Shown here: piece by piece, positions 8,550 through 63,894 of the stretch | Position numbering within the stretch: position 1 is the first letter of the stretch | Layout of the letters: every line of letters starts with the position of its first letter | Sequence record: NC_041936.1 | Length of the DNA: 64,000 bases | Source of the DNA: Escherichia phage ECD7 | Direction: 5' to 3' (one strand) | The notes under the pieces: model-generated | Databases searched by the model: none | The model's input: the letters and a program-made list of their open reading frames with translations, nothing else | What the model was told of the DNA's origin: nothing | Translations under genes and position numbers: made by a program

Positions 8550-9275
8550 TTACTTGAGTGTGTGGAATTGGCTATGTTTAGTCTCTCGCACCTTGACAGA
8601 CCCATCGCGTTTGATATAATAGATCAGTGACTTGAGGGTGTCGTGTACATACGCGTGCGGGAAACGCTCTGGATACTTCTTCCAATCTGGAGTATTAACG
8701 ATCCAGTCGAAAATCCACCACGGGCAGGAGTAGTAACCACGACCGCCACCGATCAAGCAAATGGTCGGACGGAAGCCAGTAAGATCGCAAAATGAATCAG
8801 TGTCATTTGCTGGGGAACGATGTTCTGCTTCGTCAGAGAAAATGTTTGCTACCGGAGATTCCACTTTAACTTCCGGTGCTTCTTCAACATCTGACTTAAC
8901 TTCTTCGACCACTGGTTCAACTGCTGGAGATTCTTCTTTTGTTTCTTCAATGACGATCTCAGGTTCTTTCATTGCTTCAACCAGAGACGGGTCAACTTCG
9001 TCGAATACCACTTTATCATCTGCGGTGTCTGCTGCCAGAATAAGATCGTTAATACTGGTTCCTTCTGCCGGAGTTTCTTCTTCCATTTCGGAAGCCAGTT
9101 TAGTTAATTCGGTTTCTACGAACTCGATCATGTTCTCTAGTGATAAAGTCTTTTTGACCTTAATATCAAATTGTTTTGCGTAGTCAGCTAATTCTGTTTT
9201 AGCTGTTTTCTGTGCTTCTTTGTCGTCGGACGCCGCAATAGCGCGGAGTTCTTCGAAATATTCTTTATCAAACAT
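8550..9275 (-). CDS. inh: Inh-like protein (candidate prohead protease inhibitor)
   Basis: 241 aa between hoc and uvsW as in T4; acidic low-complexity middle and Cys/Trp-rich C-terminus; assigned by position and size only. Confidence 0.4.
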   Translation of the reverse strand: MFDKEYFEELRAIAASDDKEAQKTAKTELADYAKQFDIKVKKTLSLENMIEFVETELTKLASEMEEETPAEGTSINDLILAADTADDKVVFDEVDPSLVEAMKEPEIVIEETKEESPAVEPVVEEVKSDVEEAPEVKVESPVANIFSDEAEHRSPANDTDSFCDLTGFRPTICLIGGGRGYYSCPWWIFDWIVNTPDWKKYPERFPHAYVHDTLKSLIYYIKRDGSVKVRETKHSQFHTLK

Positions 9276-23377: not shown

Positions 23378-23707
23378 TTATAGTCTCCTGAATGGATCAT
23401 CACGTAAATCAATATCTTTTAAGAACTCATCCCATGAATGGCGGATATTGTTCTTAATTCTCCAGATAAGCGCAGGGATTGAACGCTCTCCCATCTGGAA
23501 GTAAGGATCATATGATCCGTATGCCCAATATGCTACTACAATTCCACAATCAGCGCAATAGTATTCTATTTCACTTGCTGGCGACCAAAGTCCATCAATA
23601 TGATCAGTGATCTTGCTTTCGATGTTATGGCTATGACAATCAGGGCAACGGATGCAATGACCTTGTTTATCGTAATTTGACGTTAGAGAATACTTAAACA
23701 ATCTCAT
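23378..23707 (-). CDS. zinc-ribbon protein (109 aa)
   Basis: CxxC...CxxC (CIRCPDC ... CADCG); TAATG coupling to the methyltransferase-like gene. Confidence 0.5.
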   Translation of the reverse strand: MRLFKYSLTSNYDKQGHCIRCPDCHSHNIESKITDHIDGLWSPASEIEYYCADCGIVVAYWAYGSYDPYFQMGERSIPALIWRIKNNIRHSWDEFLKDIDLRDDPFRRL

Positions 23708-24423
23708 TATAGATCCTTATTGGCTTCAAATACTGCCTTTGCGAATCCTCGCGGCGTAAGTGACCTGATAGTCTTTGTTCTGGTTCCTTTCCCGCCTAGC
23801 TTAGAATGCTGTTTGCTGTACCCTTTATTAATCTGCAACGGTTTCTTTTCTGGCATTATAAAGCCTTGTCCGGTCCATAAGCAAGTCTTTTTCGGGTACA
23901 TATCACGGGCGGCAATATACTCAGGAAACGTAGGATGCTTATCATCTTCCGGCAAATAACCGCCATATTCCCACGGATGGAACATGTAATCAGGCTTACG
24001 CCACATACTAGAGATAACGCTTACAGGATTCTCTATCATATAGGGAACTCCTAGCCATTCACCCAAATAAGCGGTTATTTTAGCTGCCCGTACATCATGA
24101 ACTTGAATCAATGGTCCTTGTTCTCGTTTCTTTCGTTCAAAGTGTGCAGCGCCACTAACAGCTAAATTGGTGCACGGTGGGAATGCAAATATAATATCCG
24201 GTTTCCCCCATTCAAGGTCCATTGCTCTTTCCAGCCAGTTCAAATCAATCCAGGTGTTTACATAGGTAATGTTTGGATGTTCAAATCTGGTATTATACTT
24301 TTTGTATGTACCGTGGTCGGCGTCATCCGCATTAAAGCAGACTACCTTATGACCTGCTTTAGCCCATTCTAGCCCCATTATCCCCGATCCGTCAAAGTTG
24401 CAGAATATTAATTTTTGTTTCAT
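23707..24423 (-). CDS. cytosine-5 methyltransferase-like protein (238 aa)
   Basis: N-terminal FxGxG (FCNFDGSGIMG), catalytic-type FPPC, and ENP motif in the order of C5-MTase motifs I, IV, VI; short for a DNA MTase. Confidence 0.45.
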   Translation of the reverse strand: MKQKLIFCNFDGSGIMGLEWAKAGHKVVCFNADDADHGTYKKYNTRFEHPNITYVNTWIDLNWLERAMDLEWGKPDIIFAFPPCTNLAVSGAAHFERKKREQGPLIQVHDVRAAKITAYLGEWLGVPYMIENPVSVISSMWRKPDYMFHPWEYGGYLPEDDKHPTFPEYIAARDMYPKKTCLWTGQGFIMPEKKPLQINKGYSKQHSKLGGKGTRTKTIRSLTPRGFAKAVFEANKDL

Positions 24424-45216: not shown

Positions 45217-45798
45217 TTACGCCTTCTTACGTTCTAAAATTTGTTCGCTGATCAGGTAATTATCAAGGAAGTAATTATGTTCTTCTTTTGTTGCAAAGTC
45301 AAAATATAATTCCTGAATCATTTCCTTAGAGATACCAACATCATATTCAAATGGATCGTTGACCCCTGAACGTTGAACATACGTTAACACAATACGGTCC
45401 GCAAAGTCAACTGCTTTTTCAATCAGGGAAGGTCCACCGATAACACTTACCAAACCTTGCGTTTTCTCCAGGACTTTTAACAGATCCTTTAATTCGTCAT
45501 CATTAGTAATTGCGGTATACACATCTGGTTGGTCGCCGTTTTTTGTTTTCGGTTCTGGCTTGCTGGTATCGGTGCTAACAACCACATTCAAACGTCCCCA
45601 AAGTGCTTTAGGCAGACTTTCAAAGGTGTTACGTCCCATTACTACCGCAGCAAAATCAACATCGCCAATAGTGCGGATTTTAAAGTTTTCCATATCCTTT
45701 TTGATTGGACGATCCCACGGTAAACCGCCTTTAAAACCAAACGCCCAATTTTCATCTGACATTTTAGTGTTGCCAATCGCAAATACACATTGAATCAT
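45217..45798 (-). CDS. frd: dihydrofolate reductase
   Basis: FGFKGGLPW...MGRNTFESLP DHFR-like N-terminal motifs; position upstream of td as in T4. Confidence 0.8.
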   Translation of the reverse strand: MIQCVFAIGNTKMSDENWAFGFKGGLPWDRPIKKDMENFKIRTIGDVDFAAVVMGRNTFESLPKALWGRLNVVVSTDTSKPEPKTKNGDQPDVYTAITNDDELKDLLKVLEKTQGLVSVIGGPSLIEKAVDFADRIVLTYVQRSGVNDPFEYDVGISKEMIQELYFDFATKEEHNYFLDNYLISEQILERKKA

Positions 45799-45812
45799 AA
45801 TATAATCTCCTA

Positions 45813-46142
45813 TCAAATCAGTTTGAAATAGTTGTCTTGCACGTTTTCTTCTGTGATTGCCGTTTTAAATTCTTGACCGTTATCCGGTGTTATGACATAG
45901 CGGTCTGAATAATCACGCCATCTTTTCAGCATACTGACGCCAACATTAACACCATTTTCCCAGAAACGGAAGGTAATCATTTTTGTTTCATATCGGTAAT
46001 CACTTTGAATCAAGCTACCATCACCGCGACGTGATTCATAAACCGTAATACATTCACGGTTAGCGGCTTTAAGGCATTCTTCAATAGTGCCACACGAGAC
46101 AATTTCTGTTGAGTCATCTACGATTTGTTCTACAGTCCACAT
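45813..46142 (-). CDS. hypothetical protein (109 aa)
   Basis: ORF behind the promoter at 46174-46201. Confidence 0.45.
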   Translation of the reverse strand: MWTVEQIVDDSTEIVSCGTIEECLKAANRECITVYESRRGDGSLIQSDYRYETKMITFRFWENGVNVGVSMLKRWRDYSDRYVITPDNGQEFKTAITEENVQDNYFKLI

Positions 46143-46173
46143 AATATAATTCTCTCTTCGTTTCGATGTTTGT

Positions 46174-46201
46174 ATTATACATCATCTGTATTCGGTGTCA
46201 A
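46174..46201 (-). promoter_or_regulatory. sigma70-like promoter
   Basis: minus TTGACA - 16 nt - TATAAT. Confidence 0.5.
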
Positions 46202-50695: not shown

Positions 50696-53600
50696 ATGGC
50701 AGATTTTTCTCAACATTTCAAGGCCACATTTGGCTTTGACGCTGGTAATGAAAAGGTCGTCAATGTAGCATTGGCTGATAAGAATGTCAACACCGATGCG
50801 GTCAACGTTGAATTTTTCAATTACCATAATGGTATTACTCAGTATGACACAACTCGCGGTTATGATCAATACGGAACTACAATCTATCAAAACCGTCCGT
50901 ATTATGCAAAAGAAGATATCACAAAGCCAGCAGGTGATTTTGACCCGACTAAATGGCAAGCACTGCGCACGGACCCACGTTGGGATTATATTGCAGCAAC
51001 TTCCGGTGATACTCCTTTACAGTCTGGTGATTATATCGCAGCAGATGGTCAATTTGCAAACTTGACTTTCTCTATGCCAACTAAACCAGCAGAGGGAGAC
51101 ACTATAACAGTAAAAGATATCGGTGGCAAGTGTGGTGTTAACGAATTATCGTTCTTGAGTTCAGGACATGAGTTTTACCATAACGGTAATGTGTATAACC
51201 GAAAATGGTATTGCACTACCCCGTATGCAATGAACTATTTCATCTTTGTTCGTAATCGTTGGCATGTTTATCAGACAGGAACAGAGCCACGCGGGGTGTA
51301 CGCACAGCCAGCGATTGATGCTATTCAAATGCAGAATGGTGATCAGGTCTTTCGTCGTAGTTCGTTGGGTAATATTACCTTAGTGCTTCCTAAGTTTGCC
51401 AACAATGGCGACATGATCCAGACTACAGACCTTGACGGATTAACCGCAACCAACCACGTTACGGTTAAAGTTCATGAGCACGCAGAAGAACAATCAATTG
51501 GCACGTCCGGTCTAAAAGAGATTATCGGTAAGCGTAGCGGTCATGGTGTATTCATCTTTGACAAGACGGAAAACTTATGGCGTTTGTGGGATGGTGATCA
51601 GTCTGTTCGTCTTAAACCGATCATCGATGACACTCGCTTGCAACCTAATAGCTATGTTGCCGTATTTGGTGATCGTGATGTTACTCTGACGCTGCCGACC
51701 AATGTCGAGCCGGGTGATCGTATTCAAGTTTCTATGCAGTATATGCACGGAAACCAGACTTGCCGAATCATTACCTCAGAAGAGGATACAAAAATCCTTA
51801 TGCAGAAAAACATGGTTCAGTTTCCTAAGCGTAGCGAGTACCCATTCAATGGGACCGATACATGGACGGGAGTTTCTGAATTGTCTTTCAACGCTGCAAA
51901 TGATTATGTACCTTATCTGGAGTTCTCTTATTCAGAAGGTGATGATGGTAAGAAATACTGGTTGGTGGCACATGCTCACCCGATTGTAGAACGAGTAGAT
52001 CCGACTCGTAAAGACCGTGTTGGTGTAATTGCACTGGCTACCCAGACTGAAACGAATAAAAACCATGAAGAGAATCCTAGCGACGAAGTTGCAGTAACAC
52101 CAAAAATGCTGGCTAATAAAACCGCCAACGAAACTCGACGCGGTATTGCTCGAATTGCAACTCAAGCGGAAACGCATCAAGATACTGGTTCCAACTTCCT
52201 GGATGATGTTATCGTTACGCCTAAAAAGTTAAATGACTGTGTTGCTACCGAAGCCCGTCGTGGTGTGATGGAAATTGCAACCCAGCACGAAACCAATGAA
52301 GGTTTAGACGATACCCGCGCTATTACTCCTAAGAAATTAGAAGAACGTCGCGCTTCCGAAGATCTCGCTGGTATTGCTGAAATTGTTCAGGTTGGCGGTA
52401 GTGCTGCCGCTCGACGTGGCGAAGCTGGTACAGGGATCTATAACATCAACGACCATGCTAAAATTGTTACGCCAAAAAACATCAACGAGGTCAAGGCGAC
52501 CGAAACTTCCCGTGGTGTTGGCTATCTGGCAACTGACGCGGAAGTGCAAGGGGCTACAGAATCAACCCCGCAAGATGCTTTACTAATCACGACTCGCACG
52601 CTAACGAAACGTACTGCTACCGAATCGCGCACTGGTATCGCTGAAATTGCAACACAGGAAGAAACAAACTTAGGTCAAAGTGATAACCATATCATCACGC
52701 CTAAAAAGCTGCATACTCGCCGCGCAACGGAAACTTTACACGGTTTAGCAGAAATTGCAACTCAGCCGGAATTTGACGCAGGTCTTGACGATGCTCGCAT
52801 TTCTACCCCATTGAAGATTAAAACCTTCTTTGAGAATGCACAGCGTTTGAAAGTAGATCCGACTCAGGGGCTTAACCTTACTGGTGATTTGTGGCAAGGT
52901 ATCATGATCCGCGGTCTGGACGCAACCGAAGACACAAAAGGTGTCGCTAAAGTTGCTACTACTCAGCTTACGGATGCTGGTCAAGATGATACTACAATCA
53001 TCACGCCTAAAAAGCTGCAAGGCAAAAAGGCCACAGAAGGTAAAGAAGGTATTATCCGAGTTGGTACTCAAGCCGAAACCGTGGCTGGTACACTGGCTAA
53101 TGTAGCAATTTCTCCGAAGAACTTCAAATATGTTGTTCAGACAGAGGATACATGGAAAGCAACCGAAGCGCGTCGTGGTTTCTTGAAAGTTGCCACTCAG
53201 GAAAACTGTTTTGTTGGTGATAATCTGCAAGGTTCTACTCAAGAACTAGGAAACTACCAGCATGACGGAATTGCTGTTACCCCGAAAGGATTAAACTACG
53301 CACTTGCTAATTTCTTACCTAAGATGGCAACCGCTCAGAATAGTTTGAAATTAGGTAACGTAGAGGCCGCTAAATGGGCGCGTAGAGACATTGACCAGAC
53401 CATAGAGAGCAATTACACGTTTAATAAAAACGTTAACGTGAAGGGCGATTTAGAGTGCTTAAAATCAGGTTCCTTTGAAACTCTGTATGTGACTAAGAAC
53501 TCTACTGATGATCCGAGTAATGGTCATCTGGTGTTGGGTGAGCGTGGAGTTGACGGTCACACCGGAATTACTCTGCATGGCACAACCGCATCGGAAGGCA

Positions 53601-54436
53601 TGAAAAACTCCTGGTCTATTATCGTTGGTGGTACTGGAACGGCGCAAGCAGTTAATAGTGGCGCTATCGCTTTCGGTCAAATCAATGATGGTGGAGTCGT
53701 CGAGCATTACGCCTTTGCTATGGAACACACTGGCGACGCGACAGCATATAGAAACTTAATGGCAGGTCGTAACCTGTATGCAAAACAAGGCGGTTTATAC
53801 ATTGTTGACCTGTCTAATCCGGCAATGACTCGTTCCTCAGATGGTATGCTGAATATCGGTCACGGTGGAAGTGTTAACATCAAGGCAGGTCATCAAACGT
53901 TAACTACAGAGATCGCCGGACAGAAATATCAGATCGTACACGCAGGAAACGCCGACGAAGTTCTTAACCGTCGGTTTGTTAAGAATGCTGGCGATACAAT
54001 GGTCGGTAAGCTGACTATGGATAATGCGCCTATTGTTTCTGTTAAGCATGAAGCTAGCGCGGCAACCGCTCCGGCAATCGGTAACATCGGTTTCTGGAAT
54101 ATGCGAGTTACTACCCAGAACATCAAAGAAACTTATCCAGAGAAGAAAAACGGTACTCTGATGCAATGGGGTACTGACGCGGACGGGCTTACCCAGCTTT
54201 GGTCCCCTGATGGTACTCATAAACATTATATCCGTTCCGGTACTGGTGGTCAATGGACCGCATGGGGTGAAATTTACACCAAACAGAATAAGCCTACCGC
54301 TCAGGAAATCGGGGCAGTTGTTGCAGAAGGTGGTTTAATGAACTCTATGACGGTTCGTGATTGGATCAAAGTTGGTAATGTTAAAATCATCGCCAATAAT
54401 CTGACTCGTACCGTAGACTTTATCTGGGAAGACTAA
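50696..54436 (+). CDS. 34: long tail fibre proximal subunit gp34
   Basis: 1246 aa; GDTITVKDIGGKCGVNEL, FPKRSEYP, RRGIARIATQAET, ISTPLKIKT and C-terminus NVKIIANNLTRTVDFIWED colinear with recalled T4 gp34. Confidence 0.9.
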   Translation: MADFSQHFKATFGFDAGNEKVVNVALADKNVNTDAVNVEFFNYHNGITQYDTTRGYDQYGTTIYQNRPYYAKEDITKPAGDFDPTKWQALRTDPRWDYIAATSGDTPLQSGDYIAADGQFANLTFSMPTKPAEGDTITVKDIGGKCGVNELSFLSSGHEFYHNGNVYNRKWYCTTPYAMNYFIFVRNRWHVYQTGTEPRGVYAQPAIDAIQMQNGDQVFRRSSLGNITLVLPKFANNGDMIQTTDLDGLTATNHVTVKVHEHAEEQSIGTSGLKEIIGKRSGHGVFIFDKTENLWRLWDGDQSVRLKPIIDDTRLQPNSYVAVFGDRDVTLTLPTNVEPGDRIQVSMQYMHGNQTCRIITSEEDTKILMQKNMVQFPKRSEYPFNGTDTWTGVSELSFNAANDYVPYLEFSYSEGDDGKKYWLVAHAHPIVERVDPTRKDRVGVIALATQTETNKNHEENPSDEVAVTPKMLANKTANETRRGIARIATQAETHQDTGSNFLDDVIVTPKKLNDCVATEARRGVMEIATQHETNEGLDDTRAITPKKLEERRASEDLAGIAEIVQVGGSAAARRGEAGTGIYNINDHAKIVTPKNINEVKATETSRGVGYLATDAEVQGATESTPQDALLITTRTLTKRTATESRTGIAEIATQEETNLGQSDNHIITPKKLHTRRATETLHGLAEIATQPEFDAGLDDARISTPLKIKTFFENAQRLKVDPTQGLNLTGDLWQGIMIRGLDATEDTKGVAKVATTQLTDAGQDDTTIITPKKLQGKKATEGKEGIIRVGTQAETVAGTLANVAISPKNFKYVVQTEDTWKATEARRGFLKVATQENCFVGDNLQGSTQELGNYQHDGIAVTPKGLNYALANFLPKMATAQNSLKLGNVEAAKWARRDIDQTIESNYTFNKNVNVKGDLECLKSGSFETLYVTKNSTDDPSNGHLVLGERGVDGHTGITLHGTTASEGMKNSWSIIVGGTGTAQAVNSGAIAFGQINDGGVVEHYAFAMEHTGDATAYRNLMAGRNLYAKQGGLYIVDLSNPAMTRSSDGMLNIGHGGSVNIKAGHQTLTTEIAGQKYQIVHAGNADEVLNRRFVKNAGDTMVGKLTMDNAPIVSVKHEASAATAPAIGNIGFWNMRVTTQNIKETYPEKKNGTLMQWGTDADGLTQLWSPDGTHKHYIRSGTGGQWTAWGEIYTKQNKPTAQEIGAVVAEGGLMNSMTVRDWIKVGNVKIIANNLTRTVDFIWED

Positions 54437-54468: not shown

Positions 54469-55608
54469 ATGACACAAGATATAGAATTACGCAATACTGG
54501 AATTAGGTTTGCGCATTTCGACGAAGACTCTGCGACATTTACCAGCATTTCAGAAAATAACTCTGTGATGTATAAGCTGGAAGTGCGCGGATCTAATGCG
54601 GATTCTACCAAACCAGCAAGGATTAGATTTAATGGAGTGGAGATCGTTGGCACTGGCTATGAAAATGGCCTAAATTTTAAAGTTCTTACTCCAACTGGAC
54701 AACTACACGAAGAAAAGGTATTCTATGGTCGCGGTGCTGTTTTGGCAATGCGTGATTATCTTTCTTTGCTGAAAGGTGACTATATCATTGCGATGGCAAC
54801 GCATGGAGAATTGTTTGCAGATCCGATAAGTGATGATGTATTTTCTAAGCTGGGATCTGTATCATTCCCGAATCACATTTTGTTACAGCAAATGCCTCGT
54901 GTATCATATGCAGCAATTTATTCTACTAAAATGGGTAAAATTGTGTGCGAAGGTATGCAAGCGACCCACGGGGAAGGACAAGATTCATCTATACAAATTG
55001 AGAAAGTCTATGATACTATAGATGATCTTGCTATAACAGGAACACCACAACGATTTTTAGATTATCCGGTTGAGTATGTTAGCGAAGATGCCGAACATTT
55101 CGAGCTAATACAATGGCCTCACGATGAGATCAGCGCCCCACTTGAGGATTTTAACATAAAGGCAGGTGACAAACTATCAATATCCTTTGAATTGTTCCGT
55201 GATAGTGCCGCAGCCGCAGCCAACGTAACAGCGCGTTTCTATCACAACTACTTCACCGATGGACAATATCAAACTGGTGTTCGATACAATGCCAGCAAAA
55301 AAGACCAATGGGAAAAGTTTGAAGCCGTCTATACCGTACCGGAAGGAGTTGATAGTGTAGTAACTGGTTGTATCAGATATCCAACCAACTCAAGTGAAGG
55401 TATTGTTAAAATTAGAAACATACTAATAACGCCGATCAGTGGAGTCGTCAAAACTACTGGTCCTACTTCATTTGGTGTTAATGGTGTTAGAACAACTCAT
55501 ATTCAGGATAACGGTGATTTTACTAACCCTGTAATGAGTCTTCTTAAACTGCCTAGAGATAATAAACACATCACATCCAACAACTTTAAAGAGTTCGATG
55601 TTGATTAA
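54469..55608 (+). CDS. 35: long tail fibre hinge connector gp35
   Basis: 379 aa directly after gp34 (T4 gp35 is 372 aa). Confidence 0.7.
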   Translation: MTQDIELRNTGIRFAHFDEDSATFTSISENNSVMYKLEVRGSNADSTKPARIRFNGVEIVGTGYENGLNFKVLTPTGQLHEEKVFYGRGAVLAMRDYLSLLKGDYIIAMATHGELFADPISDDVFSKLGSVSFPNHILLQQMPRVSYAAIYSTKMGKIVCEGMQATHGEGQDSSIQIEKVYDTIDDLAITGTPQRFLDYPVEYVSEDAEHFELIQWPHDEISAPLEDFNIKAGDKLSISFELFRDSAAAAANVTARFYHNYFTDGQYQTGVRYNASKKDQWEKFEAVYTVPEGVDSVVTGCIRYPTNSSEGIVKIRNILITPISGVVKTTGPTSFGVNGVRTTHIQDNGDFTNPVMSLLKLPRDNKHITSNNFKEFDVD

Positions 55609-55619
55609 CATTTTTAACA

Positions 55620-55650
55620 AGCCGATCCTCGTGGTCGGCTTTATTTTTAT
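55620..55650 (+). terminator. rho-independent terminator after gene 35
   Basis: GCCGATC..GGTCGGC hairpin followed by a T-run. Confidence 0.6.
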
Positions 55651-55769: not shown

Positions 55770-55777
55770 TATAAATA
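55770..55777 (+). promoter_or_regulatory. T4-type late promoter TATAAATA upstream of gene 36
   Basis: exact TATAAATA 34 nt upstream of the ATG. Confidence 0.55.
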
Positions 55778-55810: not shown

Positions 55811-57301
55811 ATGGCAGATTTGAAATATGGATCTACTGTAGGTGGATCTCCCATTTGGACGCAAGGAAACTTGACGATCCAGCCAGCGGGGGATCAGCTT
55901 TTCTACAAAGGTCATAAAATCTATACCGCTTTTGATAGACCTTCGGCTACCGATTTTGATGCTGTTAGTGCATCCGAAGGTGGAACATTTCAAAAGCAAG
56001 TTCATTTCGAGGAAGGTTTAAGCGTAGGTAGCGCATCGGCTGGAGAAACCAAAAAGAATGGTATCTTTAAAGGTCAGAGTGACGCTGCTAATTTTGACGG
56101 CGTAAGCTGGGGTTTGCATTCATGGAAGTCAATCGGCTTTGTTAATGCCCGTGATGGCGTTATTATGGCGTATATTGACACCACAACGGGCGAATTTAAG
56201 TCTAAAGGGACTATCGAAGGGACAACCATTAAAGACACAGGTCAACGCGTCTATAGCCCTGTTAATAAACCAACGAATAATGATTTAGATTTGGTGTCTC
56301 GTCGCGGTGATACTCTCACAGGAACATATAATTTAAACACTGTCACTGTTAAACTATCGGTTGATTCGAAATTAATTGCAAGGGAACGTGATTTAATTAA
56401 TTTTGATGCGACTAAGATCTATTATGGTAACGTTCTTGATACGTTGGTCTTCCGAAGTAAAGATGAGCCTACCATTTTTGTTAATGGCAAAGAAGGTCGT
56501 TTTTATCACACCAACAATAAACCAACTAAAGCCGATGTTGGACTAGGAAATGTCACCAATGATGCACAGGTTAAACGTGCTGGTGATATTATGGAAGGTA
56601 ACTTGCAAGCGCCTAGAATGTTGGCGACAAACGATCCTGCTGGTCCTAATGAATTGGTTCGTTTGAGCTACTTTGAGAGAAAATCAATGGTAGCAAATCC
56701 AACCATCATAGGAAACGTTGATTGGAACACTCTTATTAATCGCGGTATCTATCGTGTGGAAAATGCTGGGTCGGGTACTAATAAACCGTCTGATAGCTAT
56801 TATAACGGCGTTTTGATGGTATATCGCCCAGAAGATGCGGTCGGCACTCGTCGAATTGTTCAGGTGTATTATCCTGAATCTATTGACCATCCGATGTGCT
56901 GGCGTTCTTGTTCTAATGAATCATGGACTGCATGGAACTATGTAGATCACCGTAAATTAGCCGATATTCGCTATGTTAACGTAACTGGCGATACCATGAC
57001 AGGACCGTTAACTGTTCCGGCTGCAAACGGTGTTAGAACGGCTAAAACTAACTATAACGGGGATAACTGTTATGCGGCGTTAAGCGGTGCTGATGGTACT
57101 GCTATGATTCACCGCATTAGTGATATTAAAGGGACCGAAAAGCTGGGGATCACCCACGACTCAAAGGTCGTGTTTTTCCGTTCTAGAAACAATACTCAAA
57201 CCGTGGACCGCTATCAGCTTTATCATGAAGGCAATAAGCCTACTCCGGCTGATGTTGGAGCGGTTCCACTTAATGCGGTGATTGATTTTGGTACTTTCTA
57301 A
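55811..57301 (+). CDS. 36: long tail fibre distal-half subunit gp36 (enlarged)
   Basis: 496 aa; repeated NKPT..D(V/L)G fibre motifs; position between 35 and 37. Confidence 0.65.
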   Translation: MADLKYGSTVGGSPIWTQGNLTIQPAGDQLFYKGHKIYTAFDRPSATDFDAVSASEGGTFQKQVHFEEGLSVGSASAGETKKNGIFKGQSDAANFDGVSWGLHSWKSIGFVNARDGVIMAYIDTTTGEFKSKGTIEGTTIKDTGQRVYSPVNKPTNNDLDLVSRRGDTLTGTYNLNTVTVKLSVDSKLIARERDLINFDATKIYYGNVLDTLVFRSKDEPTIFVNGKEGRFYHTNNKPTKADVGLGNVTNDAQVKRAGDIMEGNLQAPRMLATNDPAGPNELVRLSYFERKSMVANPTIIGNVDWNTLINRGIYRVENAGSGTNKPSDSYYNGVLMVYRPEDAVGTRRIVQVYYPESIDHPMCWRSCSNESWTAWNYVDHRKLADIRYVNVTGDTMTGPLTVPAANGVRTAKTNYNGDNCYAALSGADGTAMIHRISDIKGTEKLGITHDSKVVFFRSRNNTQTVDRYQLYHEGNKPTPADVGAVPLNAVIDFGTF

Positions 57302-57371: not shown

Positions 57372-60314
57372 ATGGCAGATTTAAGCAGAATCCAATTTAA
57401 ACGCACTAGCACTAAAGGTCGTAAACCTGATGCTAGTACGATGAATCCGGGGGAATTGGCAATCAACCTTGCGGATCAATATCTTCTTACTAAAAATGAT
57501 TCCGGTGCTATTATCAATTTAAGTTGTCCTCCGGTGTATGACCGCGATGTTACAATGGCGGGTAAGGTTAAAGGTAATAATTATATCTTAAGTAAAACCG
57601 CCAACTATTTGGAAGACCAGACAGCGAGAGATCTTAACTACTTTGGCGCTTTCTGTACCAATGGTCTTGATGGTCTTCTCGAACTCACGCTAAACGTTCC
57701 TCACTCTTCCGGTGTCCAACATGGTCGAGGATTTACTTTCCAGTATGGGCACACTGGATCGCGCGTAGAAACTTATGGATATAATGCACAAGGACAAAAA
57801 GCATTTAGCTATAAAATGTATCACGAAGGTGATAAACCAACTCCAGGAGAATTGAACGTTTATAGCAAACAAGAAGTTGACCGTATGTTTGTTAAAACCG
57901 TTAAACTTGCTACAGTTCCTGTTGATATAGTTGACGGTTATTTTAAATTAGCGACTGCGATGATTCCGCAAAACGGTCGTAGCGTATTTTTCCGTATTCA
58001 TGGTGGTAACGGATATAACGTTACTGCATACGATCAAGTTGATATTGTAGAAATTGTTATTCGCAGTGGAAATAATCGTCCTAAAGGTGTTAACGTTATT
58101 GCATACCGCCGAAATACAAACAAAGCATTTGATGTTTTGGCTGTTAATACTTCTGGTGATAACTATGATATCTACGTGAAATATCAGCGTTACACTGATA
58201 ACGTTATTGTTGAATTTGGTAAAAGTGTTGATGTTGATCTGGTAGTCCATGACGTTCCAGATTTTGTTGTTGATCGTCCTGTTGGCGATAATGTTATTGG
58301 CGGTCGCGCGGTAACTCTTTTCAACACCGAAAACAAACGAGGTGTGTTGAGTTTTGACGACAACACACAAAATAGTTATGATATTGTTCACTTGAGTAAT
58401 GATAGGGGTACTGGACGGAAATATATTCGTAAATTCCGTAGCAACTATAACGAAATGATCTGGCATGAGACGGTTCAAGGTTCTACTTATCGACTCGCCA
58501 CGGGTAGTACAGATGCCCAGGAGATTCTATCCGTTGAATCTAGTAGCTCTATTGCTGGGACTCATAAAGGTAATATTCTTTCTGGTCGAATGATGTTGGG
58601 TGGCGGTAGTAATGTTATTACCTTGCGGCGTCCTGCTGGTCAATCCAACCATATTACGTTTCAAGATAATCGGACTGGATCTATTACCCGTCAAGGGTGG
58701 ATCGGTTATGGTAATGCTGATACTAACGTTTTTGAATGGTATAGTGATGTAGGTGGTACTTCTATTCGTCACCACATCGACGGACAGATCGAACTTGCAA
58801 CCGGTAACACAAAACGAGTTTATACTAACGCTCAATTCATCTCAATGAATAGCAACGCCTACCGTATGCTATACGGTAATTATGGTGCATTCTGGCGTAA
58901 TGACGGCGTTAAAGTTTATCTTCTTTCTACTGCCGAAAATGATAAATTGGGTGGATGGAATAGCTATCGTCCATTCATTTATGATTTAACTTCCGGTAAC
59001 GTTCAATTAGGCGGTGATGGTAACGAAGATGCATTAACGTTAGAACTTGCTTCTCGTGCCGCTCGCTTTAGTAATGACGTTTACATTAAGAAAGGGCATT
59101 TGACTTTCGACGCTGGGCGCTCTGGATCTCGCGATTACTTCCGGTTTAACCATTGGGGTGATAGCAATAATGCCCGTGATAACATTCTATATCTAGAAGA
59201 CAGTAAAGGTCGACATTTTAGCACCGAGCGTAATATGGCAACGGGTGCATTAAAAGCCGACTTCTTAGGCGATCTTGAAGTTGGTGGTAAGTTGACATGG
59301 GGTAAAAATACAGCTACATCTAGCTTTAATATTCGTGCATGGGGTAGTGATTCTCGTAAGCAAGTATTAGAATGCGCGGATGAAAGTGGTTGGCATTGGT
59401 ATACCCAACGTGCTGGCGGTCCAGGTACTGAATTAATCGATTTTGCCATTAATGGTACTGTTAAGCCTAAAGCAATTCACACTGGCGGTAATATTACCCT
59501 GAACGGTCCTGATATTGAGTTTAAACGCGCTGGCAATAAGCACATCTGGTTTAGAGATCCAGACGGTTTAGAGTTAGGCTTGATGTACTGCGATGATGCT
59601 GGTGCTATTCGATTCCGTGGTCAGAAACAAGCCCAAGCGTGGAAATTTGCAGATAAAATGATCCAGTTGGAATCTGGTACTGTAACCGGTGGCGGTAATG
59701 GCCTGATTCGTGGTGAAGTTGCTGGCGGTAGTTGGGCTAGCTGGCGTGACCGTGCTGCTGGCCTTATGGTTGGGTGTCCTCAATCCACCAACTCGGCACA
59801 TAACGTATGGAAAGCGACGCATTGGGGTAAATATCACATTGCAGCAATGGCTGTACATGTTCCTGATGGTACTATTACCAATGCTTTAGCTCGCCTAAAC
59901 GTTCATGACGCCAACTTTGACTTTAGCGCATCCGGTGACTTGTCGGCAGGTCGTAACGGTTCGTTTAACGATGTGTATATTCGTTCTGATGCTCGCCTTA
60001 AAATCAATAAGGAAGAGTATAAGGAGAATGCCACCGATAAAGTTAATCGCTTGACGGTATACACCTATGACAAGGTTAAATCTTTAACCGACCGTACTGT
60101 CATTGCTCATGAAGTTGGTATTATTGCTCAGGATCTTGAAAAAGAATTGCCGGAAGCCGTAACAACTTCTAAGATCGGCGACCCAGATAATCCAGAAGAG
60201 ATCTTAACAATTTCTAACTCTGCTGTCAACGCTCTTTTAATTAAGGCGTTTCAGGAAATGAGCAAAGAATTGAAAGCCGTTAAAGCTGAACTAGCAGAAC
60301 TTAAAAAGAATTAA
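57372..60314 (+). CDS. 37: long tail fibre distal subunit gp37 with C-terminal intramolecular chaperone domain
   Basis: 980 aa; N-terminal MADL and fibre repeat motifs; C-terminal domain begins at SDARLK. Confidence 0.75.
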   Translation: MADLSRIQFKRTSTKGRKPDASTMNPGELAINLADQYLLTKNDSGAIINLSCPPVYDRDVTMAGKVKGNNYILSKTANYLEDQTARDLNYFGAFCTNGLDGLLELTLNVPHSSGVQHGRGFTFQYGHTGSRVETYGYNAQGQKAFSYKMYHEGDKPTPGELNVYSKQEVDRMFVKTVKLATVPVDIVDGYFKLATAMIPQNGRSVFFRIHGGNGYNVTAYDQVDIVEIVIRSGNNRPKGVNVIAYRRNTNKAFDVLAVNTSGDNYDIYVKYQRYTDNVIVEFGKSVDVDLVVHDVPDFVVDRPVGDNVIGGRAVTLFNTENKRGVLSFDDNTQNSYDIVHLSNDRGTGRKYIRKFRSNYNEMIWHETVQGSTYRLATGSTDAQEILSVESSSSIAGTHKGNILSGRMMLGGGSNVITLRRPAGQSNHITFQDNRTGSITRQGWIGYGNADTNVFEWYSDVGGTSIRHHIDGQIELATGNTKRVYTNAQFISMNSNAYRMLYGNYGAFWRNDGVKVYLLSTAENDKLGGWNSYRPFIYDLTSGNVQLGGDGNEDALTLELASRAARFSNDVYIKKGHLTFDAGRSGSRDYFRFNHWGDSNNARDNILYLEDSKGRHFSTERNMATGALKADFLGDLEVGGKLTWGKNTATSSFNIRAWGSDSRKQVLECADESGWHWYTQRAGGPGTELIDFAINGTVKPKAIHTGGNITLNGPDIEFKRAGNKHIWFRDPDGLELGLMYCDDAGAIRFRGQKQAQAWKFADKMIQLESGTVTGGGNGLIRGEVAGGSWASWRDRAAGLMVGCPQSTNSAHNVWKATHWGKYHIAAMAVHVPDGTITNALARLNVHDANFDFSASGDLSAGRNGSFNDVYIRSDARLKINKEEYKENATDKVNRLTVYTYDKVKSLTDRTVIAHEVGIIAQDLEKELPEAVTTSKIGDPDNPEEILTISNSAVNALLIKAFQEMSKELKAVKAELAELKKN
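59985..60311 (+). other. intramolecular chaperone (peptidase S74-like) autoproteolytic domain at the gp37 C-terminus
   Basis: SDARLKINKE ... VGIIAQDLEKELPEAV ... LLIKAFQEM ... coiled-coil tail; pattern recalled from endosialidase/T5 fibre chaperone domains. Confidence 0.6.
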
Positions 60315-60356
60315 GGAAAATTCCCAGGGAAGGGAAACTACTAAGGAGAAACGGCT

Positions 60357-60596
60357 GTGGTCTATAATATCATCATTGGTGCTTTGTCTAATTTCGGAAT
60401 GAAATTATTGTCAAAGTTAATTAGTGAAAAGATGCTCACTAAAATTTTCTTCTACTGCGCTCGTCGTCTTGCGGCTTATACCAATACGCCAATTGATGAT
60501 CGTTTTGTGGAAGAACTTTATAAGGAGTTTAATAAAGATCAGTCAGAAGATAGTAACGAGCAAGATAAACCTAGTGATAGTCAAGTACCTAAATAA
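60357..60596 (+). CDS. small hypothetical protein (79 aa, GTG start) in the gp38 slot
   Basis: AAGGAG RBS upstream of GTG; hydrophobic N-terminus, acidic C-terminus; not gp38-like. Confidence 0.4.
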   Translation: MVYNIIIGALSNFGMKLLSKLISEKMLTKIFFYCARRLAAYTNTPIDDRFVEELYKEFNKDQSEDSNEQDKPSDSQVPK

Positions 60597-60629: not shown

Positions 60630-61286
60630 ATGCAAGTTTCTGAAAAAGAGAAAGACTTTGCTATCTCAAATGTCCTGCGCGCTATTTTCACAACTAAAAG
60701 CACGGAGTTGCTCGTACTTCGTGTTTTTGCTGCCGTCGTGTTGTCCATATTGGCATTTGTCGTTTATAGTAAAAACGAGTTATTTGCGCTTTATAAAGAG
60801 ACTCGTTATGAGACTTATGCTCACATTCTCCAGGTAGAGAAAGACCGCAATTTTGATAATGCAGCACAGGAGCAGTTACAGATAGTTCATGTGTCGGCTG
60901 ATGCCGATTTTTCTGCTGTTTTTAGTTTTCGTCCGAAAAACCTAAACTATTTTGTTGATTTGGTGGCATATGAAGGAAAGCTACCGCACACAATCGATGA
61001 AAAAAATTTAGGCGGATTCCCTATCAATAAAACGAGTGAAGAATATCGTAGGCATCTTTTAGGTAAATCATATTTTACCGATAAAGATTTCCAGTATATT
61101 CCATCAAGAGAAAAGAAATTAGAGAATATCGATATAGGTTTCATGTATTCTTGTCCTATATTCAATCTCGATAATGTCTATTCTGGTAGTATCGCCATTT
61201 CATGGAAGAATAAACCGGATATTGACATTGAGAATTTAGATACTCTTTGCAATCAATCTGCCAGAATCCTCGGAAGGATTAGATAA
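60630..61286 (+). CDS. t: holin T
   Basis: 218 aa; YETY, LQIVHVSADADFSAVFSFRPKNLNYFVDLVAYEGKLP, YSCPIFNLDNVYSG, ARILGR colinear with recalled T4 holin. Confidence 0.9.
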   Translation: MQVSEKEKDFAISNVLRAIFTTKSTELLVLRVFAAVVLSILAFVVYSKNELFALYKETRYETYAHILQVEKDRNFDNAAQEQLQIVHVSADADFSAVFSFRPKNLNYFVDLVAYEGKLPHTIDEKNLGGFPINKTSEEYRRHLLGKSYFTDKDFQYIPSREKKLENIDIGFMYSCPIFNLDNVYSGSIAISWKNKPDIDIENLDTLCNQSARILGRIR

Positions 61287-63135: not shown

Positions 63136-63894
63136 TTACTTGCAAACGTATTGATCTACATCAATTGCGCCACCGAATGTGGGATGACGTTTTTCAAATC
63201 GAATAGTTCCGTCGTTTGGTTCGAAAACGGAGTATTCATATAGATCTTTCTTGCCAACATTCTTATAAAACCCACCTTTAGTCATAACGGTTTCTTGTAC
63301 GTTTGCTTTGTGTACGTTGTATTCGTCAATGTATACAAAATCAACCATCTTCCCATTTTTAATGGTTACTTTAAGATCTCCTGGCTGGTTTCCATATTTT
63401 GCATACAGTGGAGCCTCTTTAATTTTTGTGGAAATTCCATCTTTCATACTCCACTCATAACGAACGGTGCATTGATAGGTAAAAGTTTCGACCTTCGGTT
63501 CTTCTACCACTTTTGCTTCCTGTTTCGGTTGTTCTTCTTCAACCTTCGCAGAAGTCTCTGAATCTCTCTCTGACTCGGTTTCTTCTTTAGGTAATACATT
63601 CATCAAGTTTTGGATTTGAGCGTTATATACAACCTCCAGTGGCTGAATCTGCCCGATATTGATCATTGTATCACGAACAGTTTTATTCCAGTTGCGTTGC
63701 TCTTGTTTAAGAGACGGATCAATCTTAACAGCCTTAACATATACCTCATGAAGTTTCGAATCCAGTGCGGAGATTGACTCATTAGCACAAATAAACTTCT
63801 CTGATTTGGTAGTGGCTTTAGCGCAATCAAAGGACGCAGCATTAGCACCGAAAGCAGTAGCGGAAAGAACGATAGCAGCGATAATGTTTTTCAT
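63136..63894 (-). CDS. secreted DUF1311 (LprI-like) domain protein
   Basis: signal peptide MKNIIAAIVLSATAFGANA; FDCAKATTKSEKFIC...LDSKLHEVY resembles the DUF1311 N-terminal signature. Confidence 0.5.
   Translation of the reverse strand: MKNIIAAIVLSATAFGANAASFDCAKATTKSEKFICANESISALDSKLHEVYVKAVKIDPSLKQEQRNWNKTVRDTMINIGQIQPLEVVYNAQIQNLMNVLPKEETESERDSETSAKVEEEQPKQEAKVVEEPKVETFTYQCTVRYEWSMKDGISTKIKEAPLYAKYGNQPGDLKVTIKNGKMVDFVYIDEYNVHKANVQETVMTKGGFYKNVGKKDLYEYSVFEPNDGTIRFEKRHPTFGGAIDVDQYVCK

What the first reader, a model, noticed from the sequence alone, without database searches (positions are those of the whole stretch)
57372..60596. Distal tail fibre gp37 ends in an intramolecular chaperone domain and there is no gp38
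The last ~109 residues of gp37 (from SDARLK at 59985) match the autoproteolytic intramolecular chaperone pattern of endosialidases and T5-type fibres (GIIAQDLEKELPEAV, LLIKAFQEM, coiled-coil tail). In T4 the fibre tip needs the separate gp38 chaperone or adhesin. Here the gp38 slot holds only a 79 aa unrelated ORF (60357-60596). This predicts self-chaperoned trimerisation with C-terminal cleavage, and a receptor-binding tip formed by gp37 residues just upstream of 59985.
Basis: partly seen in the sequence, partly recalled or inferred. Interest (0 to 1): 0.5.

Follow-up and report, generated by a model that had tools for sequence, protein, structure and literature searches.

The report
Self-cleaving tail fibre, adhesin encoded elsewhere
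The tail-fibre protein of this RB49-like E. coli phage does end in a self-removing folding domain, but that is the usual design for relatives of phage T2: cleavage exposes a docking site for a separate receptor-binding protein (gp38), whose gene in this phage group sits about 100 kb away, outside the window, so the finding is ordinary and already published.

Summary
The window is a Krischvirus (RB49/Phi1-like), 94.6% identical to Phi1 across g37 to t.

**What holds up.** gp37 (57372-60314, 980 aa) carries a Peptidase_S74 intramolecular chaperone at aa 872-980 (Pfam E=1.3e-11). It has the Ser872/Lys877 dyad, and a predicted fold that matches solved chaperone domains. The slot between g37 and holin t holds only a 79-aa ORF, and no gp38 relative lies anywhere in the window.

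**What does not.** "No gp38" is true of the window, not of the phage type.
- RB49 and all listed close relatives encode a true gp38 adhesin (PF05268 E=7e-72, plus Gp38_N) about 105 kb from g37. By synteny that is about 49 kb before the window start.
- gp37 ends in DVYIR|SDARLKI, the motif published as the cleavage site and gp38 docking tip of T2-type fibres.
- In Shigella phage CT01 the same tip and chaperone (59% identical) is followed directly by g38.
- Among Krischvirus gp37s the chaperone and tip are the most conserved parts, not the variable ones.
- Published RB49 host-range mutants map to gp38.

**Verdict.** This is a T2/S16-type fibre tip with a displaced adhesin gene. Self-chaperoning and cleavage are supported; gp37 as the receptor binder is not. 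All of this is already described (Trojet 2011; Efimov 2022).

The parts
55770..55777 (+). T4-type late promoter motif TATAAATA upstream of g36. No further copy lies before g37, the 79-aa ORF or t, so g36-g37-ORF79-t look like one late transcription unit.
   Evidence: pattern search; terminator-like hairpin 55619-55641 after g35
55811..57301 (+). g36, distal hinge connector of the long tail fibre (496 aa)
   Evidence: phrog_16472 and phrog_1425; RB49 annotation
57372..60314 (+). g37, distal long-tail-fibre subunit precursor: 980 aa, 108.4 kDa. The predicted mature form is aa 1-871, 96.2 kDa.
58713..58982 (+). Gp34_trimer-like trimerisation domain in the gp37 shaft (aa 448-537)
   Evidence: Pfam PF21446, E=9.7e-24
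59970..59984 (+). DVYIR (aa 867-871), the last strand of mature gp37. It is the predicted docking face for the gp38 N-terminal domain. The scissile bond is Arg871|Ser872.
   Evidence: Invariant in 8 Krischvirus gp37s and nearly so in 31 homologues. Same motif as described for T2-like fPS phages and S16 (PMC7917993).
59985..60311 (+). Intramolecular chaperone / Peptidase_S74 domain (aa 872-980, 12.2 kDa). The catalytic Ser872 is at 59985-59987 and Lys877 at 60000-60002. The domain ends in a C-terminal helix.
   Evidence: Pfam E=1.3e-11. PDB 6F45 S16 gp37 alignment. Invariant S/K. The AF2 model matches 7DC3, 3GW6 and 3GUD.
60357..60596 (+). 79-aa ORF in the position where T2/T4 have g38 (= RB49ORF251w/Dc5, phi1p252). 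It is a small three-helix protein with a hydrophobic N-terminus. Its function is unknown and it is not a gp38 relative.
   Evidence: phrog_402, E=4.6e-20. PF26925 on all homologues..
60630..61286 (+). t, T-type holin (218 aa)
   Evidence: PF11031, E=5.3e-61; phrog_860

Best explanation
This is the distal half of a T2/T6/S16-type long tail fibre in a Krischvirus (RB49-like phage).

**Proposed mechanism.**
1. gp37 is made as a 980-aa precursor.
2. Its C-terminal 109 residues form a trimeric intramolecular chaperone that nucleates folding of the triple beta-helical tip.
3. Once the trimer is correctly folded, Ser872, activated by Lys877, cleaves the Arg871-Ser872 bond and the 12-kDa chaperone leaves.
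4. The newly exposed flat end, formed by three copies of DVYIR, is the docking site for one copy of the gp38 adhesin.
5. The glycine-rich C-terminal domain of gp38 binds the receptor (OmpA or certain O antigens in RB49-like phages).

In this phage group g38 is not next to g37. It lies about 105 kb away and so outside this window. The old g38 slot holds an unrelated small ORF.

**Shown here:** the domain, the catalytic dyad, the fold, the absence of g38 from the window, its presence at a distant locus in all close relatives listed, the conservation pattern, and the co-occurrence of the same gp37 end with an adjacent g38 in another T-even phage.

**Inferred from homology and literature:** actual cleavage, gp38 capping, and gp38 as the receptor binder in this particular phage.
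For: - **Identity of the phage.** The window is 94.6% identical to Phi1 over g37-t and similar to other Krischvirus genomes.
- **Chaperone domain.** Peptidase_S74 matches aa 872-931 at E=1.3e-11, above the curated cut-off.
- **Catalytic dyad.** Ser872 and Lys877 (Ser+5) match T5 pb1 Ser1264/Lys1269 (PMC4690869). They are invariant in 31 homologues.
- **Fold.** The AF2 model of aa 760-980 (pLDDT 77) hits the MyRF ICA domain 7DC3 (E=7e-5, TM 0.69 on the target), the endosialidase chaperone 3GW6 and 3GUD.
- **Best PDB sequence match.** This is the gp37 chain of the S16 gp37-gp38 tip complex, 6F45 (E=1.7e-5).
- **Docking motif.** gp37 ends in DVYIR|SDARLKI. This is the motif given as the cleavage site and gp38 docking strand in T2-like phages (PMC7917993).
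- **gp38 exists in relatives.** RB49p079 is a true gp38 adhesin: PF05268 E=7.3e-72 and PF21721 E=6e-18. Homologues at 80-100% identity occur in Phi1, JSE, GEC-3S, Makalu_001-003, E26, Sf20, ELT3, SSG23 and others. In all, 26 of the 30 best g37 matches appear among the 40 gp38 hits listed.
- **Co-occurrence elsewhere.** Shigella phage CT01 has a gp37 C-terminus 59% identical to the window's, including S74, immediately followed by g38 and then t. Its gp38 is also 59% identical to RB49 gp38, so the two partners have diverged in parallel.
- **Conservation pattern.** Mean pairwise identity among 8 Krischvirus gp37s is 0.975 in the chaperone and 0.77 in the last 41 aa before Ser872. It drops to 0.38-0.48 in the shaft segments 401-480 and 681-720.
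[quoted passage not shown] RB49 gp37 has a self-cleaving chaperone and is capped by gp38, and host-range mutations map to gp38 E230K/Y231S (PMC9569957). Krischvirus gp38 variants determine receptor use (PMC12032242).
Against: - The rest of this phage's genome is not available, so the presence of g38 in this particular isolate is inferred from relatives and not seen.
- The best database genome is only about 95% identical, so gene loss cannot be formally excluded.
- Cleavage has not been demonstrated biochemically for any Krischvirus in the papers I could read.
- The third conserved tryptophan of the gp38 attachment domain is a tyrosine in RB49 gp38, so the docking geometry may differ slightly from S16.
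- The Arg 'folding sensor' described for T5 and K1F could not be assigned from sequence alone.
Confidence: 0.9

Rival explanations
1. The phage has no gp38 at all. After the chaperone is cleaved off, the gp37 residues just upstream of Ser872 form the receptor-binding tip, as in the T5 L-shaped fibre pb1.
For: No gp38 relative is present in the 64-kb window. The g38 slot holds an unrelated ORF. In T5 pb1 the domain upstream of the chaperone is indeed the receptor binder (PMC4690869).
Against: - All close relatives listed have a displaced g38.
- The tip motif DVYIR is invariant and is the known gp38 docking strand.
- The same tip is followed by g38 in CT01.
- The variable parts of gp37 lie in the shaft and not at the tip.
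- RB49 host-range mutants map to gp38.
Confidence: 0.03
2. The 79-aa ORF in the g38 slot has taken over a gp38-like role, as a new small adhesin or a dedicated fibre chaperone.
For: - It occupies the g38 position and is co-transcribed with g37.
- Its homologues in Ounavirinae, Crifsvirus A24 and Aeromonas LAh_6 also lie next to tail fibre or needle genes.
- Trojet et al. raised this kind of possibility for small ORFs after g37 in other phages.
Against: - It is 95-99% identical in most Krischvirus records, whose gp37 and gp38 vary. That is the opposite of adhesin behaviour.
- It has a hydrophobic N-terminus and an acidic disordered tail.
- In a Vibrio phage its homologue follows a lysozyme gene and not a fibre gene.
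- The upstream genes share no common domain, and none has S74.
- It shows no similarity to either gp38 type beyond an 11-residue chance match.
Confidence: 0.04
3. The S74-like domain is retained in the mature fibre, either as a degenerate non-cleaving domain or as a purely structural C-terminal knob.
For: Cleavage was not measured here. Some S74-family members are processed inefficiently.
Against: - Ser872 and Lys877 are invariant across 31 homologues, and the Pfam match begins exactly at the Ser.
- The domain is 97.5% conserved.
- In S16 the equivalent 113 residues are autocleaved (PMC7917993).
- A retained chaperone would block the gp38 docking face.
Confidence: 0.03

Closest known systems
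RB49 / Phi1 / JSE (Krischvirus) long tail fibre locus
   Same: The gene order is the same: g34-g35-g36-g37, a 79-aa ORF, then t. gp37 is 76-93% identical, the chaperone is nearly identical, and the small ORF is 95-99% identical. The displaced g38 is published for RB49 (PMC3157838).
   Different: The differences are allelic, mostly in the gp37 shaft (aa 401-480, 601-720). This isolate is not identical to any genome in the collection; its best matches are about 95-98%.
Salmonella phage S16 / T2 / T6-type fibre tip (gp37 with cleavable chaperone, capped by the gp38 adhesin; PDB 6F45)
   Same: gp37 ends in a Peptidase_S74 chaperone and is cleaved just before the Ser of the SD.R.K motif. The cleaved end docks a monomeric gp38 with a polyglycine sandwich domain. 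Shigella phage CT01 shows the same gp37 end at 59% identity, with an adjacent g38.
   Different: Here g38 is not adjacent to g37 but about 105 kb away in relatives. The residues upstream of the last five differ from S16. RB49 gp38 has Tyr in place of the third docking Trp.
T5 L-shaped tail fibre pb1 and K1F endosialidase (founding members of the intramolecular chaperone family)
   Same: The C-terminal chaperone fold is the same, as are the Ser / Lys(+5) dyad and the expected self-cleavage after trimer folding.
   Different: In those proteins the domain upstream of the chaperone is itself the receptor-binding or enzymatic part. Here it is a docking platform for a separate adhesin.
T4 gp37 with the gp38 chaperone
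   Same: Overall fibre architecture and gene order g34-g37, followed by t.
   Different: T4 gp37 has a C-terminal needle receptor-binding domain, has no S74 domain, and needs a Tfa-like gp38 chaperone. The window gp37 gives no gp37_C match, and no T4-type gp38 is in the window.

Membership tests
Peptidase_S74 / intramolecular chaperone (endosialidase, T5 pb1, GA-1, MyRF ICA) | Match to the family profile above the curated threshold, at the extreme C-terminus of a fibre or spike protein | tested here: met
   PF13884, E=1.3e-11, 45 bits against a cut-off of 22, over aa 872-931 of 980. All 31 homologues carry PF13884.
Peptidase_S74 / intramolecular chaperone (endosialidase, T5 pb1, GA-1, MyRF ICA) | Nucleophilic Ser at the domain start, with Lys five residues downstream | tested here: met
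   S872 and K877 in SDARLK. Both are invariant in 31 sequences. The equivalents in T5 pb1 are S1264/K1269 (PMC4690869).
Peptidase_S74 / intramolecular chaperone (endosialidase, T5 pb1, GA-1, MyRF ICA) | Mixed alpha/beta fold ending in a long C-terminal helix (coiled coil in the trimer) | tested here: met
   AF2 monomer model, with pLDDT 79-95 over the chaperone part. Foldseek hits: 7DC3 at E=7e-5 and TM 0.69 on the target, then 3GW6 and 3GUD. The model is a monomer, so trimer packing was not modelled.
Peptidase_S74 / intramolecular chaperone (endosialidase, T5 pb1, GA-1, MyRF ICA) | Autoproteolytic release of the domain after trimer folding | not testable with these tools
   Needs protein chemistry. 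The expected products are 96.2 kDa and 12.2 kDa.
T2/T6/S16-type fibre tip (gp37 + gp38 adhesin) | gp37 ends in the docking strand followed by the cleavage motif (S16 DLNVS|SDRRIKK; fPS phages DVYIR|SDGRLKI) | tested here: met
   DVYIR|SDARLKI at 59970-60005; PMC7917993.
T2/T6/S16-type fibre tip (gp37 + gp38 adhesin) | A gp38 adhesin gene (Gp38_N attachment domain plus GP38 polyglycine domain) in the genome | tested here: inconclusive
   Absent from the window. Present in RB49 at 45367-46143 (PF05268 E=7e-72, PF21721 E=6e-18) and in the close relatives listed. The corresponding region of this phage lies outside the window.
T2/T6/S16-type fibre tip (gp37 + gp38 adhesin) | g38 immediately downstream of g37 (the canonical gene order) | tested here: not met
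   The slot holds an unrelated 79-aa ORF. The same holds in RB49, Phi1, JSE, GEC-3S, ELT3, SSG23 and W115. This is a known displacement (PMC3157838). It bears on gene order, not on the mechanism.
T2/T6/S16-type fibre tip (gp37 + gp38 adhesin) | gp38, not gp37, determines receptor specificity | not tested
   Literature only: RB49 host-range mutants E230K/Y231S in gp38 (PMC9569957); Krischvirus gp38 variants and receptors (PMC12032242). Indirect support here comes from the conserved gp37 tip.
T4-type gp37 (C-terminal needle receptor-binding domain folded by a Tfa-like gp38) | gp37_C / needle domain at the C-terminus and a T4-type gp38 chaperone gene | tested here: not met
   The window gp37 gives no PF12604 or PF20744 match. 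tblastn of T4 gp38 against the window finds only chance-level hits, with E>=0.67.

The most novel reading that the evidence does not exclude
This particular isolate, unlike every sequenced relative, has lost the displaced g38. It would then use the cleaved gp37 end, or the gp37 shaft, directly for adsorption. That would make it a natural gp38-less T2-type fibre.
Probability: 0.03. Interest if true: 0.5.

Novelty: already known. Interest (0 to 1): 0.08.

Why it matters
It matters mainly as a caution for annotation and host-range prediction.
- A C-terminal Peptidase_S74 domain on a T-even gp37 does not mean the fibre is self-sufficient. It marks the T2/S16 design, in which a separate gp38 adhesin must be looked for, possibly far from the fibre locus.
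- For Krischvirus phages, which are candidates for phage therapy, receptor specificity should be read from the displaced g38 and not from the gp37 tip.
- Nothing here changes current understanding.

Tried and rejected
- **Candidate g38 ORFs in the window.** I scanned ten window ORFs of 209-299 aa with Pfam for a hidden gp38. All but two had other clear identities. The two without a match (8550-9275 and 23707-24423, both on the minus strand) have no glycine-rich motifs. A six-frame search for glycine-rich stretches also found none.
- **ORF79 as a remnant of T4-type gp38.** BLAST found a shared EELYKEF heptapeptide (T4 gp38 aa 105-124 against ORF79 aa 40-59; pairwise E=0.001, but E=1.2 against the window). 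The profile comparison gave 0.65% probability over 11 columns. I rejected this as a chance match.
- **A common upstream partner for ORF79.** I checked whether the ORF79 family always follows an S74-bearing fibre gene. It does not. The upstream genes are a T4 gp37-like fibre, an Ig-domain protein, an Sf6-type needle knob, an unannotated structural protein and a lysozyme.
- **Structure of ORF79.** The model had low confidence (pLDDT 59), so I did not run a fold search on it.
- **Family names for ORF79.** Local Pfam and NCBIfam gave no name for it. The precomputed family PF26925 is not in the local copy.
- **Papers not held.** Desplats 2002 and Hyman & van Raaij 2018 are not in the library.
- **Locus files.** Some locus files (for example L002 and L016) were not present in the Python sandbox. 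I passed those sequences in by hand instead.
Full report
**What is in the sequence.** The region is the long-tail-fibre module of a T-even relative:

| Gene | Window coordinates | Size |
|---|---|---|
| g34 | 50696-54436 | 1246 aa |
| g35 | 54469-55608 | 379 aa |
| g36 | 55811-57301 | 496 aa |
| g37 | 57372-60314 | 980 aa |
| small ORF | 60357-60596 | 79 aa |
| holin t | 60630-61286 | 218 aa |

Family searches confirm the identities. DNA comparison places the window in the genus Krischvirus. It is 94.6% identical to phage Phi1 over g37-t, and 86-93% identical, with gaps in coverage, to RB49, JSE, GEC-3S and others. It is 95-98% identical to them elsewhere, and no genome in the collection is identical to it. 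T4-type late promoter motifs (TATAAATA) lie before g34 (50660) and g36 (55770). None lies between g37, the small ORF and t, so these genes appear to be co-transcribed.

**Checking the observation.** Residue 872 of gp37 begins at 59985, and the sequence there reads DVYIR-SDARLK.
- Pfam Peptidase_S74 ('chaperone of endosialidase') matches aa 872-931 at E=1.3e-11, well above the curated cut-off.
- The only significant sequence match in the PDB is the gp37 chain of the Salmonella phage S16 gp37-gp38 tip complex, 6F45 (E=1.7e-5). The alignment runs through the chaperone.
- In an alignment of 31 database homologues, Ser872, Asp873, Leu876 and Lys877 are invariant. Ser plus Lys at +5 is the catalytic arrangement described for T5 pb1 (Ser1264/Lys1269) and the K1F endosialidase (PMC4690869).
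- An AlphaFold2 model of aa 760-980 (mean pLDDT 77, and 79-95 over the chaperone) finds three relevant structures. These are the MyRF ICA domain (7DC3, E=7e-5), the K1F chaperone (3GW6) and 3GUD, titled 'a novel intramolecular chaperon'.

The chaperone domain is therefore real. The 79-aa ORF is also real, with a good ribosome-binding site. It is unrelated to both kinds of gp38. No gp38 relative exists anywhere in the window.

**Where the interpretation goes wrong.** In the T2/T6/S16 class of fibres the two belong together. Published work on S16 and on T2-like Yersinia phages states that the last ~113 residues of gp37 are autocleaved, and that this exposes the docking surface for gp38. It gives the cleavage site as DLNVS^SDRRIKK in S16 and DVYIR^SDGRLKI in the fPS phages. 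In that account the three DVYIR strands form the flat tip that receives the conserved tryptophans of gp38 (PMC7917993; PMC6851490). The window gp37 has exactly DVYIR^SDARLKI.

A direct example came from the protein search. In Shigella phage CT01 the gp37 C-terminus is 59% identical to window aa 760-980 and includes the S74 domain. It is followed immediately by a gp38 adhesin (Gp38_N + GP38) and then holin t.

**Where gp38 is.** RB49 carries a 258-aa gene at 45367-46143 on the minus strand. Its product matches Pfam GP38 at E=7.3e-72 and Gp38_N at E=6e-18. It is 59% identical to CT01 gp38. That is the same divergence as between the two gp37 tips, as expected for partners.

The gene lies about 105 kb from g37 (151717 in RB49). 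Aligning g34 (window 50696, RB49 145039) shows that the window corresponds to roughly RB49 94-158 kb. The g38 locus would therefore lie about 49 kb before the window start.

tblastn finds this gp38 at 80-100% identity in Phi1, JSE, GEC-3S, Ec_Makalu_001-003, E26, Sf20, ELT3, SSG23, TB34, Whisky and others. In all, 26 of the 30 best g37 matches are among the 40 gp38 hits listed. The other four are simply not in the part of the list shown. One of them, FL37, is reported to have g38 away from the holin (PMC12032242).

[quoted passage not shown] Efimov et al. state that RB49 gp37 carries a self-cleaving chaperone, after whose removal a gp38 monomer attaches. They also isolated RB49 host-range mutants with E230K and Y231S in gp38 (PMC9569957).

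**Conservation pattern.** If the residues upstream of Ser872 were the receptor binder, they should be the variable part. Among eight Krischvirus gp37 proteins the opposite holds:

| gp37 segment | Mean pairwise identity |
|---|---|
| Chaperone (aa 872-980) | 0.975 |
| Last 41 residues before Ser872 (final 11 invariant) | 0.77 |
| Shaft, aa 401-480 | 0.46-0.48 |
| Shaft, aa 681-720 | 0.38 |

**Most likely mechanism.** gp37 folds from its C-terminus, with the chaperone as template, and trimerises. The Arg871-Ser872 bond is then cut by Ser872/Lys877, releasing a 12.2-kDa fragment from a 96.2-kDa mature chain. One gp38, encoded elsewhere, caps the exposed end and binds the receptor.

The domain, the dyad, the fold, the synteny and the conservation are shown here. 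Cleavage, capping and the receptor role are inferred from homology and from the literature on S16, T2-like phages and RB49. The one gap is that the rest of this isolate's genome is not available, so its own g38 has not been seen.

**The 79-aa ORF.** It belongs to phrog_402, and all homologues carry the precomputed Pfam family PF26925.
- It is 95-99% identical in most Krischvirus records (51 of the 57 records above 90% identity). Homologues of 32-50% identity occur in Ounavirinae (Felixounavirus, Mooglevirus, Kolesnikvirus), Vibrio phages, Crifsvirus A24 and Aeromonas LAh_6.
- It always lies in the late region. It usually follows a fibre or needle gene, and in one case a lysozyme gene. It often precedes a putative holin or an adaptor gene. 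The upstream genes share no common domain.
- The family shares the motif F..KLL....E......FF..A......T.T..DD.F. It has a hydrophobic N-terminal segment and is predicted, at low confidence, to form three helices.
- Its function remains unknown. Its near-invariance argues against an adhesin role.

**Comparison with known systems and novelty.** The locus is an ordinary member of the Krischvirus / T2-type fibre design. It passes the tests for the S74 chaperone family. It matches the T2/S16 tip design in everything except gene adjacency, which is a known feature of RB49-like phages. It does not match the T4 design: there is no gp37_C domain and no Tfa-like gp38. The finding is already known and its interest is low.

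Noticed in passing
window 60357-60596 (+); related loci L009 3992-4186, L010 4004-4213, L011 2504-2686, L012 2492-2692, L013 2492-2701: The 79-aa ORF between g37 and t belongs to a widespread family of small phage proteins (phrog_402 / PF26925). Members occur in Krischvirus, Ounavirinae, Vibrio phages, Crifsvirus and Lahexavirus. The family has a hydrophobic N-terminus and the conserved motif T.T..DD.F. It always sits at the structural/lysis junction of the late genes. It is nearly invariant within Krischvirus, and its function is unknown.
   Followed up: partly
window 60474-60530 (ORF79 aa 40-59) versus T4 gp38 aa 105-124: The heptapeptide EELYKEF is shared between the ORF in the g38 slot and the T4-type gp38 chaperone. 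The match falls exactly in the syntenic slot, but the profile comparison gives only 0.65% probability of homology. It is probably chance.
   Followed up: yes
protein P0035 (303 aa, from an E. coli assembly contig of 25.7 kb, alignment A2): One called protein joins a gp38 N-terminal attachment domain and part of the GP38 glycine-rich domain to a gp37 tip plus S74 chaperone (Pfam PF13884 + PF05268 + PF21721). It could be a recombinant or a mis-assembly of adjacent g37/g38 sequences. I did not examine it.
   Followed up: no
L002 (RB49) 46144-46200, upstream of the displaced g38: The displaced g38 of RB49 is preceded by a terminator-like GC hairpin (gccccttaattggggc followed by a T run). No TATAAATA late promoter lies within about 60 nt. 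How this late structural gene is transcribed among small minus-strand ORFs is not obvious from the sequence.
   Followed up: no
window 55811-57301 (+): gp36 is 496 aa here, more than twice the roughly 220 aa of T4 gp36. It matches the Phage_T4_gp36 profile only weakly, below the cut-off. The distal half-fibre is therefore partitioned differently between gp36 and gp37 than in T4.
   Followed up: no
window 63136-63894 (-): This 252-aa ORF has an apparent signal peptide (MKNIIAAIVLSATAFGANA) and an N-terminal LprI (lysozyme inhibitor-like) domain, PF07007, E=1.1e-5. It corresponds by position to RB49ORF260c. It is a secreted phage protein of unknown role close to the lysis gene t.
   Followed up: no
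L015 (Logan contig SRR19667677_2106) 1392-4921: A fibre gene pair, an 844-aa protein with Gp34_trimer followed by a 306-aa protein with S74, has a C-terminus 63% identical to the window gp37 tip. No g38 lies downstream within 4 kb, and the neighbours have no Pfam matches. This may be another lineage with a displaced or absent adhesin gene.
   Followed up: no
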